Positions 5,526 to 44,520 of a DNA stretch of 64,000 bases are shown here, in pieces. Numbering within the stretch: the stretch's first letter is position 1; each line of letters begins with the position of its first letter. A program made the position numbers and the translations under genes. The notes below the pieces were generated by a model. That model was not told the DNA's origin. It made no database searches and saw nothing but the letters and a program-made list of their open reading frames with translations. The DNA is from Candidatus Omnitrophota bacterium (lineage in GTDB: Bacteria > Omnitrophota > Gorgyraeia > Zapsychrales > JANLHA01), in the NCBI GenBank assembly GCA_963662715.1, contig OY759724.1:268670-332669 (forward strand), written 5' to 3'.

Positions 5526-5885
5526 TTACTGATCTTTCATTCCAGCCTTCTCACTATCCTGAAATTCACCTGCTTTCCATAAACCGACTTGCTCAACAAT
5601 ATTCCCTTCTTCATCTTGAAAAATTTTTCTCCCTTGACCATCAAACTTGTTGTTTTTAAATTCTCCTTTATAAAAAGAACCATTGGCATAAATCATCTTC
5701 CCCTTTCCATCGCATTGACCATTTTTAAATTCGCCTTCATAACGGGAGCCGTCTGCATAGGTAAACACGCCCTTTGACATAAGTCCTATTTTGAATTCTC
5801 CCTCATAACGGGAGCCATTCACCAACACAGCAACACCATTCCCGTCAGGCAAATTATTCTTAAAATCACCTTCATAAATATTCCC
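5526..5885 (-). pseudogene. MORN-repeat protein, 5'-truncated
   Basis: Repeated YEGEFKNG / YKGEFKNNKFDGQG MORN units. The in-frame reading continues upstream of the ORF-track start (GNIYEGDFKNNLPDG) until an in-frame TGA at 5886-5888, with no start codon or RBS. The truncation point lies 40 bp from the IS3 left end. Confidence 0.5.
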
Positions 5886-6030
5886 TCATTTCGTTTGAAG
5901 ACATACAGTGTTTCCAGTCAGCAAAATTGAGACAAATGAGCGGATAAAAATAAGAGAGAAATTTTAGGGTTGAGAAGCCCTGATTTCGGCTCCATAATGA
6001 GGCTTTAGGCCTCAGGAAAGGAGCAAAAGA

Positions 6031-6363
6031 ATGAGCAAGCCAAAAGATGTTGTGAAAGAAATCCGCAGGGCAACCCGCCGAAAATTTACCCCAGACGAAA
6101 AGATCCGCATTGTGCTGGAAGGTCTTCGGGGAGATATCCCGATATCTGAAATCTGCCGAAAAGAAGGCATCGCCGCATCCGTTTATTATAAATGGTCAAA
6201 AGAATTTCTTGAGACGGGCAAGAATGGTCTAACCCGTTCAACAATGAGGGAGGCCACTAGCGATGAGGTGAAAGCGCTAAAGAACGAGAATGCCGATTTG
6301 AAGCGGGTGGTGGCGGATTTGACGCTGGATTTGGTGAAATATAAAAAAAGTCTTGGCATGTAG
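6031..6363 (+). CDS. IS3-family transposase OrfA (HTH)
   Basis: 110 aa, HTH region RIVLEGLRGDIPISEICRKEGIAASVYYKWSKEF; ends just after the A AAA AAG slippery heptamer. Confidence 0.85.
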   Translation: MSKPKDVVKEIRRATRRKFTPDEKIRIVLEGLRGDIPISEICRKEGIAASVYYKWSKEFLETGKNGLTRSTMREATSDEVKALKNENADLKRVVADLTLDLVKYKKSLGM

Positions 6364-7372
6364 ACGGCGGTACGGTCGCATGAAGGGACGAGATAAACTA
6401 GAAATCATTCGGGTGGTGGAATCCTCTGGTTTAAGCGCAACGAAAACACTAGAAAAGATCAATATTCCACGTGGTACATACTATCGATGGAAAAAGAGGC
6501 TCAAAGAACACGGTTATCGAGGGCTTCAAGACATGAGGCCCCATCATCGCAGGATGTGGAATCAACTCACACCGGATGAAGAAAATACGATCATGGAAGT
6601 TGCGTTATTGAACCCGGAATGGTCAAGCAGACAGGTCAGCTTATATATATCTGATCGTTGTGGCTTCAGTATTTCAGAGTCAACGGTCTATCGGCGGATG
6701 AAAGCCCACGGATTGATCAAGGAACCAGACATCAGGAGATTCCCTGCGGGGAAAGAATATAAGATCAAGACGATCCGGATAAATCAACAGTGGCAAACCG
6801 ATGCGACTTATTTGAAAGTTGACCGATGGGGTTGGTTTTATCTGATTAGCGTGCTGGATGATTATTCCCGGAAGATATTGGCTTGGCAGTTGAAGAAATC
6901 GATGCGGGCAGAAGACTTCAGTGATGTCGTAGAGTTGGCCTGTGAATTTTCCGGTATCACCAAAGACGATAAAGAATCTGTCCGGTTGGTGAGCGATAAT
7001 GGTTCAGCGCTTATTTCAAAAGACTTCGGAGATTATCTCGAAGCCAAAGGGTTGGGCCATATCCTGGCCTCGCCGTACCATCCGCGAACGAATGGCAAGA
7101 TCGAGCGGTTTCATCGAAGCGCCAAGGAGACGATTCTTCTGCATGTCTGGGATAGCCCTGAACGGCTTGAGGATGAAATCGCGCGATTTATTCACTGGTA
7201 CAACTCACGGCGTTATCATGAAGGGATTGGTAATGTGACACCGGACGATGTTTATTATGGACGGCGTGATCAGATACAAAGACGAAGGCAAAATTTGAAG
7301 CAAAAGACTATTCTTGCCAGAAGGAAATATAACGGTAAAATAATGAATATTGGAGCTGAAATCGTCTCTTAA
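6353..7372 (+). CDS. IS3-family transposase OrfB (DDE integrase core; made as OrfAB fusion by -1 frameshift)
   Basis: 339 aa with rve-type DDE region (WQTDATYLKV...LVSDNGSALISKDF...HPRTNGKIERFHRS); the -1 frame overlaps the orfA end. Confidence 0.85.
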   Translation: MACRRRYGRMKGRDKLEIIRVVESSGLSATKTLEKINIPRGTYYRWKKRLKEHGYRGLQDMRPHHRRMWNQLTPDEENTIMEVALLNPEWSSRQVSLYISDRCGFSISESTVYRRMKAHGLIKEPDIRRFPAGKEYKIKTIRINQQWQTDATYLKVDRWGWFYLISVLDDYSRKILAWQLKKSMRAEDFSDVVELACEFSGITKDDKESVRLVSDNGSALISKDFGDYLEAKGLGHILASPYHPRTNGKIERFHRSAKETILLHVWDSPERLEDEIARFIHWYNSRRYHEGIGNVTPDDVYYGRRDQIQRRRQNLKQKTILARRKYNGKIMNIGAEIVS

Positions 7373-7392
7373 ATTAAATTGCAATTTGTCTC

Positions 7393-7558
7393 GTGACACA
7401 ACGCAACGGTCTTTTTCCGTAACCTGTTGATTCTCTTTGACTTGCCATGAAATAGGTGCTCCTTTATACAAACTTTTAAATGGTTGATACAGCTCGAAAT
7501 CTGTAAGCTTTACATCTTCAACTTTGATATATCGTACCATCATATCATATTCGTTCAT
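7393..7558 (-). pseudogene. 5' fragment of an unknown gene interrupted by the IS3 right end
   Basis: ORF 7205..7558 reads as plausible protein (MNEYDMMVRYIKVEDVKLTDFELYQPF...) only for its first ~55 codons (down to the IS boundary at 7392); the remainder is antisense IS sequence. Confidence 0.3.
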
Positions 7559-7675
7559 CTCGGCAGATGAACGAATATGATAAAATTGTCTACAACTGAA
7601 TAAGATGCAATATGTTATATTAATTTTACTGAGTCGTCAAGGTTGGCTCTTAATGTAGGTGAGCATATTAATTTA

Positions 7676-23368: not shown

Positions 23369-24091
23369 TTTCTTCCGCTTGTTGCTATTTAATTAGTTTT
23401 AATAATTTTACGATTCTTTTCTCCTTAATCTCCTTCAAAGCCTTGATTTCTATTGGTAAGCCATGATCAAATATTTCTTGAAGCTCTTTGTAAAACATAT
23501 TGAAAAATATCTCAAGATAGAAAAGAAGGACATATATTTATTCTTAAAAAAAATTGATGGCCTCTGAATCCCATAAGAGGGAAAATCAGGTATTAATATA
23601 AAAATCACCACTAACAGCAGGTTCGTCAACATATATTGTAGGTGAAAATTTTTCTTTTCTTATCTTTACACAGTCACCACGGAGAGTTTTTTAATAGCGC
23701 TTCTAAATTGGTATAAAACACATCTATCTAAACGGCCTTCTTTTTATGAGCATTGTTGAACAGGTGATCTCTTCTTCAAGATTATGATACTCTTCTTTCT
23801 GTTTTCGTATATACCCCTCAAACAGCTCTTTTTTATGTGGATACTTCAACATTAATTCGTGACACCTTCTCTGTATGTCTTGATACTATTTTTCATATTC
23901 ATTTTTATCACTTATTTCATCACTGAGATATTCCTTGATAATTTCCATATCAGCCGTTTTTATTTGGTTTGTCAGTTCCTTCTTTGTTCTAATTATCGCA
24001 TGGGTAGAATCGTTACTTTCTTTCATATACCCATCATCGAGTATGATGATACCATTGTCGCATAATAGCGGTTGTATGTCTTCAAACGAAA

Positions 24092-24379
24092 TGAGACAAA
24101 TTGCAATTTAATTTAAGAGACGATTTCAGCTCCAATATTCATTATTTTACCGTTATATTTCCTTCTGGCAAGAATAGTCTTTTGCTTCAAATCTTGCCTT
24201 CGTCTTTGTATCTGATCACGCCGTCCATAATAAACATCGTCCGGTGTCACATTACCAATCCCTTCATGATAACGCCGTGAGTTGTACCAGTGAATAAATC
24301 GCGCGATTTCATCCTCAAGCCGTTCAGGGCTATCCCAGACATGCAGAAGAATCGTCTCCTTGGCGCTTCGATGAAACCG
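24092..24379 (-). mobile_element. Truncated copy of the IS3-family element (3' end of orfB plus right IR)
   Basis: Encodes 89 aa that match the orfB C-terminus at 7106-7372 except for a single substitution (N->D). The terminal TGAGACAAAT is at 24092-24101. Homology to the IS stops near 24380. Confidence 0.8.
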
Positions 24380-24857
24380 CATACTTCCGAGCGATATACT
24401 TGATTTTCTTCCATCTTCTCAGAGCATAAGGCTGAACATCACATTGAGGGCCGAAATAATTCTTGCACTCTTGAAGAACCATATCACAGAGGTCTGCTTG
24501 GATACCTCGAATGAAGGAATGGATGTGAACACCCCTCCTTGACGTATTCCGCTCGCAAATCACAAGGCAATGGATATATCGCTCATAAAACTTCTTGTAA
24601 TCACGGTTGAGGTACTTGAAGAAATGCTTGTACGCATCCTTAGCCTCGGTCTTACCCGTCGCCCTCGGGAAAGTCATCGTTGCGTACAAATCGAAAGGCC
24701 CCAGTTGCTTAATCAGCTTGCCGAATCCCCGTATTCGGTCGTATCTGCTTGTCGTTTCCAACGCTTGCAGTTTTAACAGCTCTAACATATAAAATCCCCT
24801 CAAGGGTGATGATTCATCACGCCTAAATGACTGCATCCAATGTATGTATGTCACCAT
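24380..24857 (-). pseudogene. HUH-superfamily rolling-circle Rep-like protein, 3'-truncated by the IS fragment
   Basis: ORF 24330..24857: motif I-like LYATMTFP, HUH motif GVHIHSFIRG, and a Y-x-x-x-K-Y tyrosine motif (KYIARKY) just before the reading frame runs into IS sequence. Confidence 0.45.
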
Positions 24858-25067
24858 ACATAACGAAGCCTCCTGCGGGAAGAAGCCGCACAGGAGGCTA
24901 AAATCACCACACTTTCACCACGTCAAAAGGCCAAAATCGACCTTTGATGAGGTGAAGATGTCTTGCAATAACTGGATTTAACTTGTAATAATTGTTTCGT
25001 TCTCTCGTCGAGAACTTGTGGATTTGGTGGGAAAGTGTTGGGGCATCACAGGATGCCCCAGAAGATA

Positions 25068-25094
25068 TGGTGGAGGTGCGGGGAATCGAACCCC
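25068..25094 (-). repeat. tRNA 3'-end fragment (T-arm plus acceptor 3' strand plus CCA): att-site remnant, copy A
   Basis: Minus strand reads GGGGTTCGATTCCCCGCACCTCCACCA (T-loop TTCGATT, 3' acceptor, discriminator, CCA). No complementary 5' acceptor strand or anticodon arm follows, so it is a fragment, not a gene. Confidence 0.55.
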
Positions 25095-25196
25095 TATCAA
25101 TTATAAAGGGCTAAAACAAATGGTTTTCGGAAAATTTTTCAAAAAACCACCACATAAAAACCACATGAAATTTTTGAGTGAAAAATTTGACAAAAA

Positions 25197-25219
25197 ATGG
25201 TGGAGGTGCCGGGAATCTC
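25197..25219 (-). repeat. Second, shorter tRNA 3'-end fragment (copy B) in direct orientation
   Basis: Minus strand reads GATTCCCGGCACCTCCACCA (1 mismatch to copy A), 129 bp from copy A. Each copy is followed on its right by the motif CCACATAAAAACCACAT (25150-25168 and 25281-25297). Confidence 0.5.
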
Positions 25220-25295
25220 CATCAAGATGTAAATAATCCTTAAAAAGAAAGTATGTTACAGACATTTTCATCAATTCCCCCACATAAAAACCACA

Positions 25296-26438
25296 TTAAA
25301 TATTCTTGGCTATTCGATAAACCAATGCAAAATCATTTTGTGAAATTTTCTCATTACGCGCCACAAGTGTCCTTACAGCAGTAGCTCCTATTGTCGCAAT
25401 GGCCAATATAAGCCCCCCCACTGTAAATAGCTGTTGTTGCTCTTGTACGACACCTCGTAAGAATGTCGTAATTCCTGCCCAAGCCATTCTGTCACTAAAC
25501 AAATTTTCAAGGAATCTATCAGTATCTCTCCTATCAAGCATTAAAACATCCCCTATTTCATGTTCTACGTTTTGACGAATGAATTTCTCTACATAGACTG
25601 GGAGATTTTCAAGATTGTCTGGAATAGTTAACTCCTGAGCAAGTTGATGACATTTTAAACGGAATCGTTGAATTTCTGGTCCATGTTCATTTAACAGCTC
25701 TATGATGAAATCTATTTTTTCTTTATCAAGCGGATCAAGCCGTGGAGAAAGAATTTGACGAAATAATTCCCATTCTACAATATCTATATCTATATTTTGC
25801 CCAGTTTGGATGGGTTGCATATGAATCGACATTTTTGAAAATAACGTTATAAGATTTTGGTTTGTAAGCAGAATCCTCGCGTTTGCTTTTATAAAATCTT
25901 TAAAAACAAAAAGACGCAAAAAATATGACTTCACAAGCAACTTTTCAACTACCTTTTGATGGACTATCTCATCATAATAGCGATATACTTTTTCCCAATC
26001 TTCATCATACTCATAATATTTTTCGAACAATAAATGCCTCATAAATTCACCGTAAGCATTATACTGATTACAAGACAGTTTTAATTCATCAAAATTAATC
26101 CCCAACATTTCATAAAAACTAGACATTTCATCAATTGCTCTAGAACTAGCCGAATATTTCAACATGCACACAAGAATCTTTTTTAAAGGTTTAAATAAAT
26201 CAACTGTAGTGTTCGATAAATGTTTCATCTGAATCCAGCTATAAAATTGTTTCTCGAATGTATTCCTCCAACTTGGATTACGTAATTCAACAAGCCTCGG
26301 GAAAGGAGAATAATCTAAGGGATATATCACAGGTGTTTGAGTTAAAATGATCGGCCCGTCAAAATACAAAAATGTTGCGCCACTAATCTGCGAGGCATCT
26401 GTGATAGGATCTGGCCATATAAAGGTTGGTGCACTCAT
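25296..26438 (-). CDS. Hypothetical protein with C-terminal TM anchor
   Basis: 380 aa, no recognised domain; C-terminal hydrophobic helix (LFTVGGLILAIATIGATAV). Last gene of the minus-strand array downstream of the integrase. Confidence 0.45.
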   Translation of the reverse strand: MSAPTFIWPDPITDASQISGATFLYFDGPIILTQTPVIYPLDYSPFPRLVELRNPSWRNTFEKQFYSWIQMKHLSNTTVDLFKPLKKILVCMLKYSASSRAIDEMSSFYEMLGINFDELKLSCNQYNAYGEFMRHLLFEKYYEYDEDWEKVYRYYDEIVHQKVVEKLLVKSYFLRLFVFKDFIKANARILLTNQNLITLFSKMSIHMQPIQTGQNIDIDIVEWELFRQILSPRLDPLDKEKIDFIIELLNEHGPEIQRFRLKCHQLAQELTIPDNLENLPVYVEKFIRQNVEHEIGDVLMLDRRDTDRFLENLFSDRMAWAGITTFLRGVVQEQQQLFTVGGLILAIATIGATAVRTLVARNEKISQNDFALVYRIAKNI

Positions 26439-26470
26439 GCAATCTTCCTAATATTTTCTAAAAATAACTT

Positions 26471-27571
26471 TTATACTGAGCTCATTTTTAAAACTTTTGT
26501 TCTTCCCTCTTCCGTCGAGTGAGAATAATATTTAATCAGCACATTAATATCCGTATGGCCGGTAATGGCCATGACATCCCGAATGGGCATATTTTTTAAC
26601 CCGGCCTCCGTGATCAATGAATGGCGAAAATCGTGAGGGGTTACTCTTTTCTTAATTGTTCGTTGGCTGACACTTGCTAGATATTCGCGAAAATGATTAC
26701 TTGATATTTTATTACCTAATGAATTCGGAAACAACCAAATATATCCTTTTTGTCTGAAACTAAATTGTTTAATGACACTAGCCAAATCGTCGTCAATCGT
26801 TTCCAGGACAAACTCCTTTTTGTTTTTTCTGACTTCTGGATCAAGCCGAATTAGAACTGGATTCAGACCACGAAATTTAACATTTTCTTTCTTAACCGAT
26901 AATACCTCCTCGATACGCCAACCAAGCCGAATCAACATATACGTGACACCATAGTATTCAAGACGATGCTGCTTTATAGCTGCAAGGAGCTTTTGCTTGT
27001 CAGTCTTTGTTAACTCCTTGTACTTTTTTTGCATTTGAAAGGGCTTCTTAAACTCAGATAAATATTCACTCACTTCTTTTTTACAATACCCTAAACGCAC
27101 AAGGCGACTAAAAACTCCTTTAAGAGTCCCCAATTCAGAACGCCACCCCTTCTTTCGTCCCTGGTCATTCACCACAAAATTCTTATATTCATTAAAGACA
27201 TCTGTAGTAATCACATTCACATTCTGAATTTCGGGATACTTATCAGGAAGAAACACGAAGAAGAAAGTATTGTAGGTATTTAATGCCCGGCTAATTGTTT
27301 TCTTTCGAAGATTATCCCCTTTTAAATCCCTGATAAATTGTTCCTTTAAAGCATCGAAAGCGATATTTCTCTTTCCTGCTCGTATCTCATCCTTCGAAAT
27401 AACTGTTTGCTGAATCAGCCGTGATTTTTCCTGGTAAGCTTCGTACATTGAAGCTGCTTTAATACGTTTGAAAATTCGCGGGCCTTTGTTGGGAAGCTGA
27501 AAGTTAATTTCAAAGACTCCGTCCTTAATCTTTCTGACACCCAGAAACTTTTTAGACGATTTGTATCTCAA
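26471..27571 (-). CDS. int: Tyrosine-type site-specific integrase
   Basis: 366 aa; catalytic R...HxxR...Y tetrad region (HDFRHSLITEAGL ... ITGHTDINVLIKYYSH). Confidence 0.9.
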   Translation of the reverse strand: MRYKSSKKFLGVRKIKDGVFEINFQLPNKGPRIFKRIKAASMYEAYQEKSRLIQQTVISKDEIRAGKRNIAFDALKEQFIRDLKGDNLRKKTISRALNTYNTFFFVFLPDKYPEIQNVNVITTDVFNEYKNFVVNDQGRKKGWRSELGTLKGVFSRLVRLGYCKKEVSEYLSEFKKPFQMQKKYKELTKTDKQKLLAAIKQHRLEYYGVTYMLIRLGWRIEEVLSVKKENVKFRGLNPVLIRLDPEVRKNKKEFVLETIDDDLASVIKQFSFRQKGYIWLFPNSLGNKISSNHFREYLASVSQRTIKKRVTPHDFRHSLITEAGLKNMPIRDVMAITGHTDINVLIKYYSHSTEEGRTKVLKMSSV

Positions 27572-27792
27572 TTAACACTCCCCCCTTATTATCCGACAAA
27601 GGCAGGCTGTGCTTAAGCTTGAAAAAATACCCTGTAACTGGCTTTTGAAATTTGAAAGATAAGGAAAGGAGAATTGACTACGGGAAAGAATATTTCGAAA
27701 ACAATCAGCGTGGAATCCAGAAAATATATATCTCATCATAAAGAAATGGGTATTCATGATGAGATATATTATAAACGTTATCCGTTTATAAT

Positions 27793-27999
27793 TCAAGCAT
27801 TTTTCTTGCCGGGCTTTGGCCCTGGCTTTCGCTCCTTTGCTAAAAACCGTTTCAACGAATTTTCGTCGATAAGCCAAACTGTCGTATTCCGGGTTGTCTT
27901 CGCTTGACGGCCTTTGATTGTCCCCTTGCCTAAAAGCAAACGAAGATACCCGGTGGAAAGGCTGTACTTCTGGGAAGCCTCCCAGGTTGTCATAATCAT
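27793..27999 (-). CDS. Small HTH DNA-binding protein (phage/ICE regulator-like)
   Basis: 68 aa; HTH-like core (SQKYSLSTGYLRLLLGKG) and a basic tail. Preferred over the overlapping 147-aa ORF 27572..28015, which has no protein-like features. Confidence 0.45.
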   Translation of the reverse strand: MIMTTWEASQKYSLSTGYLRLLLGKGTIKGRQAKTTRNTTVWLIDENSLKRFLAKERKPGPKPGKKNA

Positions 28000-28066
28000 G
28001 AAGGTATTCTATCATTTTTTCTCTTACATTTCTTCGATTTTAAACAAAATACCCAAATACAAGTAC

Positions 28067-44416: not shown

Positions 44417-44443
44417 CGCCCTTTCCTCCTACAGTTTCAAATC

Positions 44444-44520
44444 GACGTTAATTAAATAAATCTTCACGAAACGCCCCTTTAAATGGACGTTAAATAAATA
44501 ATTCTTCACGAAACACCCCC
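44444..44520 (-). promoter_or_regulatory. Two ~34-bp imperfect direct repeats in the promoter region of the sigma-factor gene
   Basis: GACGTTAATTAAATAAATCTTCACGAAACGCCCC (44444-44477) and GACGTTAAATAAATAATTCTTCACGAAACACCCCC (44486-44520), with 42-bp periodicity, 28-104 bp upstream of the start codon at 44416. Confidence 0.5.

What the first reader, a model, noticed from the sequence alone, without database searches (positions are those of the whole stretch)
5886..7400. IS3-family element with imperfect IRs, no target-site duplication, and a 22-bp flank shared with a second truncated copy 17 kb away
Copy 1 (5928-7392) is complete, but the 3 bp outside its ends differ (aat|...|gtg), so no TSD is evident. 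The 22-mer TCATTTCGTTTGAAGACATACA lies 20 bp outside its left IR (5886-5907) and recurs reverse-complemented directly abutting the IR of the truncated copy 2 (24073-24094). There it is in-frame coding sequence (..LISFEDIQPLLCDNGIIILDDGYMKE..) of a disrupted methyltransferase-like gene reading away from the IS. This pattern implies IS-mediated recombination or deletion between copies (or an unusual IS terminus). Either way the region has been rearranged, consistent with the MORN pseudogene whose truncation coincides with the 22-mer.
Basis: seen in the sequence. Interest (0 to 1): 0.55.

Follow-up and report, generated by a model that had tools for sequence, protein, structure and literature searches.

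The report
Rearranged insertion sequence with misplaced end
The shared 22-base "flank" is really the last 22 bases of the insertion sequence itself, and the large copy is an ordinary IS3-type element preserved in rotated order, with its right tip sitting one base in front of its left tip like an opened-up transposition circle.

Summary
The 22-mer is real: 5886-5907 (+) and 24073-24094 (-), 0.01 matches expected by chance. It is not host DNA. In more than ten related elements from other genomes the same sequence, CTCATTT(C/G)GTTTGAAGAC..ACA, is the right terminus, and flanks diverge immediately after ACA. The left terminus is TGT at 5909, not 5928.

The canonical element is therefore 1,504 bp (TGT...ACA) with 29-bp imperfect inverted repeats.

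- Copy 2 (24073-24380) is a normal 308-bp right-end remnant. It abuts the 3' part of a genuine SAM-methyltransferase pseudogene, and the 22-mer is not part of that gene.
- Copy 1 is circularly permuted. It reads IS 1485-1504 (5888-5907), a one-base spacer G (5908), then IS 1-1484 (5909-7392). That is exactly one unit plus one base, bracketed by CTC on both sides and flanked by two unrelated truncated genes.

My best reading is that a transposition minicircle, or one unit of a head-to-tail dimer, opened at position 1484/1485 and was joined to the chromosome by illegitimate recombination. The origin step is inferred, not shown.

Abutted ends with 1-bp and 3-bp spacers also occur in two related metagenome contigs. 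This is a known kind of element with an unusual, probably immobile, rearranged copy. Interest is moderate to low.

The parts
5526..5885 (-). MORN-repeat gene, 5'-truncated at the junction (left flank of the permuted element)
   Evidence: Pfam MORN E=4.3e-27 with 4 repeats. The frame is open up to 5885 and then meets TGA inside the IS tip.
5885..5887 (+). CTC. This is either IS positions 1482-1484 or 3 bp of microhomology belonging to the flank. The same CTC ends the element at 7390-7392.
   Evidence: The 23-nt identity with copy 2 includes these bases (I2).
5888..5907 (+). Last 20 bp of the IS right end (IS 1485-1504, ...GAAGACATACA), displaced to the left of the element
   Evidence: Identical to the terminus of copy 2. 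The same terminus is conserved in relatives, with flanks diverging right after ACA.
5908..5908 (+). One-base spacer (G) between the abutted right and left tips
   Evidence: Read directly from the sequence. The same ACA-G-TGT arrangement occurs in L036, and ACA-GGG-TGT in L035.
5909..5937 (+). Left inverted repeat, 29 bp (TGTTTCCAGTCAGCAAAAT + TGAGACAAAT)
   Evidence: 19/29 match to the right end, with the inner 10 bp perfect. The TGTnnnnnGTCAGC tip is conserved and flanks diverge just before TGT in L002, L037, L003, L004, L014, L019, L040 and L044.
5909..7392 (+). IS positions 1-1484: the body of copy 1, lacking its own last 20 bp
   Evidence: BLAST of the reconstructed 1,504-bp element against the window. 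Alignment A1 shows copy 1 diverging after GTCTC where all others continue.
6031..6363 (+). orfA (110 aa, HTH_Tnp_1)
   Evidence: Pfam PF01527 E=3.7e-14.
6343..6349 (+). A7 run at the orfA/orfB overlap. orfB lies in the +1 frame relative to orfA.
   Evidence: Frames computed. The same frame offset follows from the called gene coordinates in L001, L002, L037 and L040.
6380..7372 (+). orfB (330 aa; HTH_23/HTH_32 + rve DDE transposase)
   Evidence: Pfam rve E=6.3e-22. NCBIfam IS3 177.6 bits (cut-off 160); IS481 189 bits (cut-off 224). 100% identical to P0001.
7384..7392 (+). Inner part of the right inverted repeat (ATTTGTCTC). The element breaks off here.
7394..7532 (-). 139-bp relic of an unrelated gene of unknown function (right flank), truncated at the junction
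   Evidence: 92% identical to L034 689-827. Homologues P0172 and P0256 both continue past ...VV(S/T) with L(L/K)(P/R)T(A/V)(G/D)RW, which is missing here.
24073..24380 (-). Copy 2: right-end remnant, IS positions 1197-1504, with an intact canonical terminus
   Evidence: 99.7% over 308 nt. The terminus is identical to relatives.
23736..24072 (-). 3' part of a class I SAM-dependent methyltransferase pseudogene, abutting the right tip of copy 2
   Evidence: A 77%-identical tblastn match to P0244 spans window 24089-23736 (P0244 aa 138-255); its first six residues lie inside the IS tip, so the gene fragment itself starts at 24072. P0244 carries Methyltransf_31/25/11.
24381..24857 (-). Rep-like gene whose 3' end is cut off by the internal breakpoint of copy 2 (IS position 1197)
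   Evidence: ORF 24330-24857 runs into the IS fragment. The match to PF23343 is weak (E=1.8e-4, below cut-off).

Best explanation
The element is an IS3-type insertion sequence of 1,504 bp with termini TGT...ACA and 29-bp imperfect inverted repeats. Each repeat has a perfect inner 10 bp (TGAGACAAAT) and a 19-bp outer tip that differs between left and right. The 22-mer is simply the last 22 bp of the right end.

Copy 2 is a right-end remnant of a copy that once interrupted a methyltransferase gene.

Copy 1 is one full unit in rotated order. It runs: right tip (20 bp), G, left tip, body, up to 20 bp before the right tip. It therefore contains an intact abutted-ends junction (right end, 1 bp, left end). 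This is the hallmark of the circular intermediate, or of a head-to-tail dimer, in copy-out/paste-in transposition.

The most economical origin is as follows. A 1,505-bp circle (IS plus one spacer base), or one unit of a dimer, was opened between positions 1484 and 1485. That point is the boundary between the inner repeat and the tip. The opened unit was then joined to chromosomal DNA by illegitimate, microhomology-type recombination (CTC on both sides), not by the transposase. The same event probably deleted host DNA, since both flanks are truncated genes.

Shown: the termini, the permutation, the unit length, the truncated flanks. Inferred: the circle or dimer origin, the joining mechanism, and that the copy is now immobile because its right end is split.
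For: - Right terminus. In L001, L002, L037, L005, L003, L008, L014, L019 and L040-L044, alignments to the reconstructed element run to its last base. Sequences diverge immediately after ...GAAGAC..ACA.
- Left terminus. TGTnnnnnGTCAGC is conserved, and flanks differ upstream of TGT. Two contigs (L041, L042) start exactly at TGT.
- Window anatomy. IS 1-1484 lies at 5909-7392, IS 1482-1504 at 5885-5907, and IS 1197-1504 at 24380-24073. Both outer boundaries of copy 1 therefore fall at one IS coordinate, and 5888-7392 is exactly 1,505 bp.
- Abutted ends recur in relatives. L036 has ACA-G-TGT and L035 has ACA-GGG-TGT, against my rough estimate of about 0.2 chance matches for the pattern.
- Precedent. 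A one-base spacer is the functional form of the IS2 minicircle junction (PMC3299598). Chromosomal IR-IR junctions between an intact and a truncated copy are documented for IS30 (PMC9333248).
- Both flanks are truncated at the junction.
- orfA and orfB are intact, and copies 1 and 2 differ at 1 of 308 positions, so the event is recent.
Against: - No free circle, canonical copy or empty site from the source genome could be examined. The 3.36-Mb source contig was not retrievable.
- The two flanks are not natively contiguous. A simple single crossover into an intact site is therefore excluded, and a deletion or an older scar must be added to the account.
- The two metagenome junctions are between two different elements. 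They demonstrate insertion next to a resident right end rather than a circle.
- An independent truncated copy in a distant relative (L022) ends at the homologous coordinate. This hints at a fragile site and weakens the 'same coordinate means single event' argument.
- The base at 7393 (G) matches neither the IS (A) nor the homologue of the flank (A).
- No sigma-70-like junction promoter is formed.
Confidence: 0.55

Rival explanations
1. Head-to-tail dimer followed by two separate truncations. A second copy inserted 1 bp from the right tip of a resident copy (IR-targeted insertion). Later one deletion removed positions 1-1484 of the upstream copy. Another deletion removed the last 20 bp of the downstream copy. 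Both ended at a breakage-prone boundary between the inner repeat and the tip.
For: - Head-to-tail arrangements of two different related elements exist (L035 with a 3-bp spacer, L036 with a 1-bp spacer).
- IR-targeting is known for IS30 and IS911.
- L022 is truncated at the homologous coordinate.
- Copy 2 shows that deletions ending inside this IS do occur here.
- The reconstructed junction can fold into a 10-bp stem whose 5' edge is the breakpoint, but the fold is weak (z = -1.74).
Against: - It needs two independent deletions ending at the same base of a 1,504-bp element.
- The fragile-site idea rests on one extra case. In L022 the break is next to another IS, so it may be an insertion rather than a break.
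Confidence: 0.27
2. The 22-mer is host (methyltransferase) DNA next to the IS, and its second occurrence near copy 1 results from recombination or deletion between the two copies.
For: The 22-mer is in frame with the downstream methyltransferase fragment. A tblastn alignment to P0244 extends six weakly similar residues into it.
Against: - The same sequence terminates related elements in unrelated genomic contexts and phyla.
- The methyltransferase homologue has TMESLK where the window reads SFEDIQ.
Confidence: 0.02
3. Assembly artefact. A tandem or multi-copy IS was mis-joined by the assembler.
For: IS copies commonly break or confuse assemblies. Several related contigs end exactly at IS tips (L001, L041, L042).
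Against: - Collapse of a tandem repeat yields canonical or dimeric copies with flanks at the tips. It does not yield unique flanks joined at one internal coordinate.
- The source is a single 3.36-Mb contig.
Confidence: 0.04

Closest known systems
IS3 family, especially IS2 and IS911 (copy-out/paste-in through a figure-of-eight and a minicircle)
   Same: - orfA (HTH_Tnp_1) followed by orfB (rve DDE).
- TG...CA-type tips.
- Bipartite inverted repeats with an outer cleavage part and an inner binding part.
- Abutted right and left ends separated by one base, as in the functional IS2 minicircle junction.
- NCBIfam IS3 model above its cut-off.
   Different: - orfB is in the +1 frame, not the -1 frame, and has its own N-terminal HTH domains and ATG.
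- No target duplication of 2 bp or more at 12 complete relatives.
- No recognisable junction promoter.
- The junction here is fixed in the chromosome inside a rotated copy.
IS30 IR-IR junctions and (IS30)2 dimers
   Same: Right-end/left-end junctions with a few bases of spacer occur in chromosomes, including junctions between an intact and a truncated copy. Insertion next to the element's own inverted repeats is a known target preference.
   Different: It is a different transposase family. IS30 junctions are described as highly reactive and short-lived. Here only 20-23 bp of the right end remain at the junction, so it is probably inert.
IS481 family
   Same: The transposase has N-terminal HTH_32 plus rve. 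The best raw NCBIfam score is to the IS481 model (189 bits). Tips are TGT...ACA-like.
   Different: The score is below the family cut-off of 224. A separate orfA is present. No 4-15-bp target duplication is seen.

Membership tests
IS3 family | DDE (rve) transposase recognised by the curated family model | tested here: met
   NCBIfam NF033516 at 177.6 bits against a cut-off of 160. Pfam rve E=6.3e-22.
IS3 family | Two consecutive ORFs, orfA (HTH) and orfB, with orfB in the -1 frame and fused by programmed -1 frameshifting | tested here: not met
   orfA and orfB are present, but orfB is in the +1 frame (start coordinates 6031 mod 3 = 1, 6380 mod 3 = 2). A conserved A7 run sits at the overlap. 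The same offset follows from the called gene coordinates in L001, L002, L037 and L040. Whether a fusion protein is made was not testable.
IS3 family | Terminal inverted repeats ending 5'-TG...CA-3' | tested here: met
   TGT...ACA, 29-bp inverted repeats matching at 19/29. Conserved in relatives.
IS3 family | 3-5-bp target-site duplication | tested here: not met
   No duplication of 2 bp or more at L002, L037, L003, L014, L019, L015, L021, L017, L038, L039, L040/L043 or L044. No empty sites were available, and some flanks are not contiguous, so later scrambling is not excluded.
IS3 family | Transposition through a circle with abutted ends | tested here: inconclusive
   Abutted ends are present in the window (1-bp spacer) and in L036 and L035. 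Free circles cannot be detected from sequence alone.
IS481 family | Single-ORF transposase matching the curated family model | tested here: not met
   NF033577 at 189 bits, below the cut-off of 224. A separate orfA is present.
IS481 family | 4-15-bp target duplication | tested here: not met
   Same flank comparison as for the IS3 family.

The most novel reading that the evidence does not exclude
This IS3/IS481-like clade, found in Omnitrophota, Planctomycetes and Proteobacteria metagenome bins and in Rhodobacterales plasmids, may integrate without a staggered target cut, leaving no duplication. It may also have a specific breakage or cleavage site at the boundary between the inner repeat and the 19-20-bp tip. 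Copy 1 would then be a captured, linearised minicircle produced at that site. That would be a natural record of a side reaction of copy-out/paste-in transposition that has not been described.
Probability: 0.12. Interest if true: 0.6.

Novelty: new member of a known kind. Interest (0 to 1): 0.33.

Why it matters
For annotation, the finding corrects the element's limits. The IS is 1,504 bp, not about 1,465 bp. The '22-bp shared flank' and the apparent missing duplication are artefacts of mis-set ends.

For biology, the value is modest. A transposition-type right-end/left-end junction preserved inside a rotated, probably immobilised copy is a rare natural snapshot of the circular or dimeric intermediate of copy-out/paste-in elements.

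The related copies also raise two testable side questions for this clade: no target duplications, and a recurrent breakpoint 19-20 bp from the right tip. Neither changes what is known about how such elements work unless the side observations hold up.

Tried and rejected
- Exact look-ups of orfA and of the 100%-identical OrfB (P0001) for the source genome gave nothing on record.
- Exact-match scans for the inner left end found nothing in genome and metagenome collections. Relatives were reached through protein searches instead.
- Restored-gene test. Removing 5888-7392 gives an in-frame 175-aa ORF. I first took this as an interrupted MORN gene. I rejected that because the N-terminal 55 aa belong to another gene, whose homologues continue differently.
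- Determining the target-duplication length by restoring ORFs across eight relatives was uninformative. The long spanning frames join different genes.
- A search for the missing pieces inside the window found none. This covered the continuation of the relic gene and the methyltransferase 5' part.
- Junction promoter: no sigma-70-type match spans 5888-5937.
- Hairpin at the reconstructed junction: a 10-bp stem is predicted, but the energy is not unusual (z = -1.74).
- The flank of L022 was examined to decide between a break and an insertion of another IS. The ends of that other IS could not be defined.
- The junction pattern has no match in viral contigs.
- Pfam on the 61-aa flank of copy 2 gave nothing. 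The methyltransferase identity came only from the exhaustive HMMER search.
- Literature searches for a described circularly permuted IS copy found none. The library is limited.

Full report
**Observation**

The 22-mer TCATTTCGTTTGAAGACATACA occurs at 5886-5907 (+) and 24073-24094 (-) and nowhere else in the window, even with three mismatches allowed. Shuffles give 0.01 expected matches. The repeat finder shows the identity is 23 nt (5885-5907 against 24073-24095) because it includes CTC. It also shows a separate 288-nt inverted repeat joining 7105-7392 and 24093-24380.

The ORFs inside 5928-7392 are those of a transposable element. orfA (6031-6363) has HTH_Tnp_1. orfB (6380-7372) has HTH_23/HTH_32 plus rve. 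orfB scores above the NCBIfam cut-off for IS3 (177.6 against 160). Its raw score for IS481 is slightly higher but below that model's cut-off (189 against 224).

**What the 22-mer is**

Exact DNA and exact protein look-ups for the source genome failed. A protein search with OrfB returned 2,713 relatives. One of them is a 100%-identical protein on a 3,360,633-bp contig, which could not be fetched. Contigs carrying close relatives could be fetched.

In L002 and L037 (two loci of one long-read metagenome, element about 80% identical in DNA) the sequence after ...TGTCTC is ATTTCGTTTGAAGACATACA. The two loci diverge from each other immediately after ACA. L001, an IS-only contig, ends at ...GTCTCATTCAGTCTGAAGACATACA.

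I rebuilt a 1,504-bp element from 5909-7392 plus 5888-5907 and compared it with all loci. Alignments run to its very last base in L001, L002, L005, L003 and L008. The same terminus, with the flank changing right after ACA, is present in:
- L040-L044;
- a gammaproteobacterial bin with about ten copies whose transposase is only about 44% identical (ATCTGTCCCATTTGTTTGAAGACGGACA).

A more diverged form of the right tip (..CTGACGACG.ACA) ends the relatives on two Rhodobacterales plasmids from cultured isolates.

On the other side, all lineages share a left tip TGTnnnnnGTCAGC followed by the inner repeat. Flanks differ upstream of TGT, and two contigs begin exactly at TGT.

The element therefore runs TGT...ACA with 29-bp inverted repeats. 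These match at 19/29, with the inner TGAGACAAAT perfect and the outer 19 bp differing between left and right. The 22-mer is the right tip.

**Copy 2**

24073-24380 is IS 1197-1504 with one mismatch, and it has a canonical right tip. Beyond the tip lies the 3' part of a class I SAM-dependent methyltransferase. An exhaustive HMMER search with the 61-aa flank found P0244 (E=2.9e-21), which carries Methyltransf_31/25/11. A 77%-identical tblastn match spans window 24089-23736, and its first six residues lie inside the IS tip.

But the homologue reads TMESLK where the window reads SFEDIQ. The 22-mer is not part of that gene. The 5' part of the gene is not in the window. The other boundary of copy 2, at IS position 1197, cuts into a Rep-like ORF of an integrase-bearing island. 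Copy 2 is therefore what a deletion left of an ordinary insertion.

**Copy 1**

Against the rebuilt element, the window has IS 1-1484 at 5909-7392 and IS 1482-1504 at 5885-5907. Read from left to right, copy 1 is:
1. CTC;
2. the last 20 bp of the right end;
3. one base, G;
4. the left end and the body, up to ...ATTTGTCTC;
5. unrelated DNA.

Both outer boundaries fall at the same IS coordinate (1484/1485). The segment 5888-7392 is exactly 1,505 bp, which is one unit plus the spacer. Copy 1 is a circular permutation of the element. It contains an intact right-end/1-bp/left-end junction.

Such abutted ends are the signature of the minicircle or of head-to-tail dimers in copy-out/paste-in transposition. 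For IS2 the functional minicircle junction has a single-base spacer (PMC3299598). For IS30, chromosomal IR-IR junctions arise by insertion next to the element's own ends, including junctions between an intact and a truncated copy (PMC9333248).

I scanned the metagenome collection with a family-wide junction pattern, for which I estimate about 0.2 chance hits. It returned two contigs:
- L036: ...TTGAAGACTGACA-G-TGTATCCAGTCAGC...
- L035: ...TTTGAAGACGGACA-GGG-TGTTCCCCGTCAGC...

In both, the right tip at the junction differs from the downstream element's own sequence: in L035 the two elements are visibly diverged, and in L036 the 13-bp upstream tip differs from that element's own right tip. Abutted ends are thus a recurrent natural state in this clade.

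**Flanks**

Removing 5888-7392 creates an in-frame 175-aa ORF. I first read this as a restored MORN gene. It is not.

Window 7394-7532 is 92% identical to part of L034. The two available homologues of that gene, P0172 and P0256, both continue after ...VV(S/T) with L(L/K)(P/R)T(A/V)(G/D)RW.... This continuation is absent from the window.

The MORN gene on the other side lacks its 5' part. Its frame stays open up to 5885, through the first MORN repeat and upstream of the TTG where the 108-aa ORF begins. So the rotated unit sits between two unrelated truncated genes.

It follows that the unit was not simply crossed into an intact site. Either host DNA was lost in the same event, or the unit landed on an older scar.

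**Mechanism**

A single opening of a 1,505-bp circle, or excision of one unit from a dimer, at 1484/1485 explains the unit length and the shared boundary coordinate in one step. The opened unit would then be joined to two chromosomal ends with 0-3 bp of microhomology (CTC).

The transposase cannot have made these joints, because neither tip is joined to host DNA.

The main rival is a head-to-tail dimer that later lost 1-1484 of one copy and 1485-1504 of the other. This needs two deletions ending at the same base. That coincidence is less damning than it looks. One independent truncated copy in the gammaproteobacterial bin (L022) ends at the homologous position (...TGTCCC|). There it lies next to an IS4-like element whose ends I could not define. 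The boundary between the inner repeat and the tip may therefore be breakage-prone or a preferred target.

The reconstructed junction can form a 10-bp stem whose 5' edge is the breakpoint, but the fold is not exceptional (z = -1.74). No sigma-70-like junction promoter is formed.

I put the circle or unit-capture reading at about 0.55, the dimer with two truncations at about 0.27, and an artefact at about 0.04. The host-flank reading is essentially excluded.

Because the right end is split, with the tip at 5888-5907 and the inner repeat at 7384-7392, the copy is probably immobile although both ORFs are intact. This last point is an inference.

**Comparison with known families**

The element works like an IS3-family member and passes the curated IS3 protein model. 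Two textbook features were tested and not met:
- orfB is in the +1 frame, not the -1 frame, relative to orfA. An A7 run sits at the overlap, and orfB has its own ATG and HTH domains. The gene coordinates in four relatives give the same offset.
- None of twelve complete relatives shows a target duplication of 2 bp or more.

The second point comes with a caveat. No empty sites were available, and several flanks are clearly not contiguous. IS481 membership fails the model cut-off.

I therefore file it as a new member of the IS3 kind, with those two departures recorded, and not as a new kind of element.

**Verdict**

The finding is largely explained. The IS ends were mis-set, and the 'shared flank' is the IS terminus. 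What remains of interest is the rotated copy with a preserved abutted-ends junction, and the side observations on this clade. Interest is moderate to low.

Noticed in passing
L002, L037, L003, L014, L015, L017, L019, L021, L038, L039, L040/L043, L044 (both ends of each element): None of twelve complete related elements shows a direct target duplication of 2 bp or more. These include copies on long-read contigs and on plasmids of cultured Rhodobacterales. The base just outside each tip matches in only about half the copies I compared by eye.
   Followed up: partly
window 6338-6400; L001, L002, L037, L040 (orfA/orfB overlap): orfB lies in the +1 frame relative to orfA, with an A7 run at the overlap (seen in the window, L001 and L002). 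It also has its own ATG 17 nt after the orfA stop. A fusion would need a +1 shift or loss of one A during transcription, not the usual -1 frameshift.
   Followed up: partly
L022 3470-3600: A copy of the distantly related gammaproteobacterial element is truncated at ...ATCTGTCCC|. This is the position homologous to the breakpoint in window copy 1. It is followed by DNA that I judged by eye to encode an IS4-like transposase.
   Followed up: partly
L035 1454-1566; L036 1-66: Two metagenome contigs carry a right tip abutting the left tip of a related element, with spacers of 3 bp and 1 bp. In each, the junction right tip differs from the downstream element's own sequence.
   Followed up: yes
L038 700-770 (Sulfitobacter mediterraneus plasmid NZ_CP081110.1): The 29-bp left inverted repeat of the related element is present twice in direct tandem: TGTCTGACGTCAGCGCTTATGGGTCCAAC x2.
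   Followed up: no
L044 176-1601: A close relative of the element is interrupted near its position 79 by a Mutator-type (Transposase_mut) insertion sequence.
   Followed up: no
window 24381-28000, with repeats at 25062-25087 and 25192-25217: An island carries a tyrosine integrase (26471-27571), a Rep-like ORF and small HTH-like ORFs. It also has two direct repeats that look like the complement of a tRNA 3' end (TGGTGGAGGTGCGGGGAATCGAACCCC). ARAGORN finds no intact tRNA anywhere in the window.
   Followed up: partly
window 23736-23888: The methyltransferase fragment has an in-frame stop after ...NEYEK, while similarity to the homologue P0244 continues for about 50 more codons. It is a pseudogene on this count too.
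   Followed up: partly
window 7536-7589: A 25-nt inverted repeat (88% complementary, 4-nt loop) sits at the other edge of the 139-bp gene relic, where similarity to L034 also stops (7532/7533).
   Followed up: no
window 44436-44519: Two tandem copies of a 42-nt unit, 88% identical.
   Followed up: no
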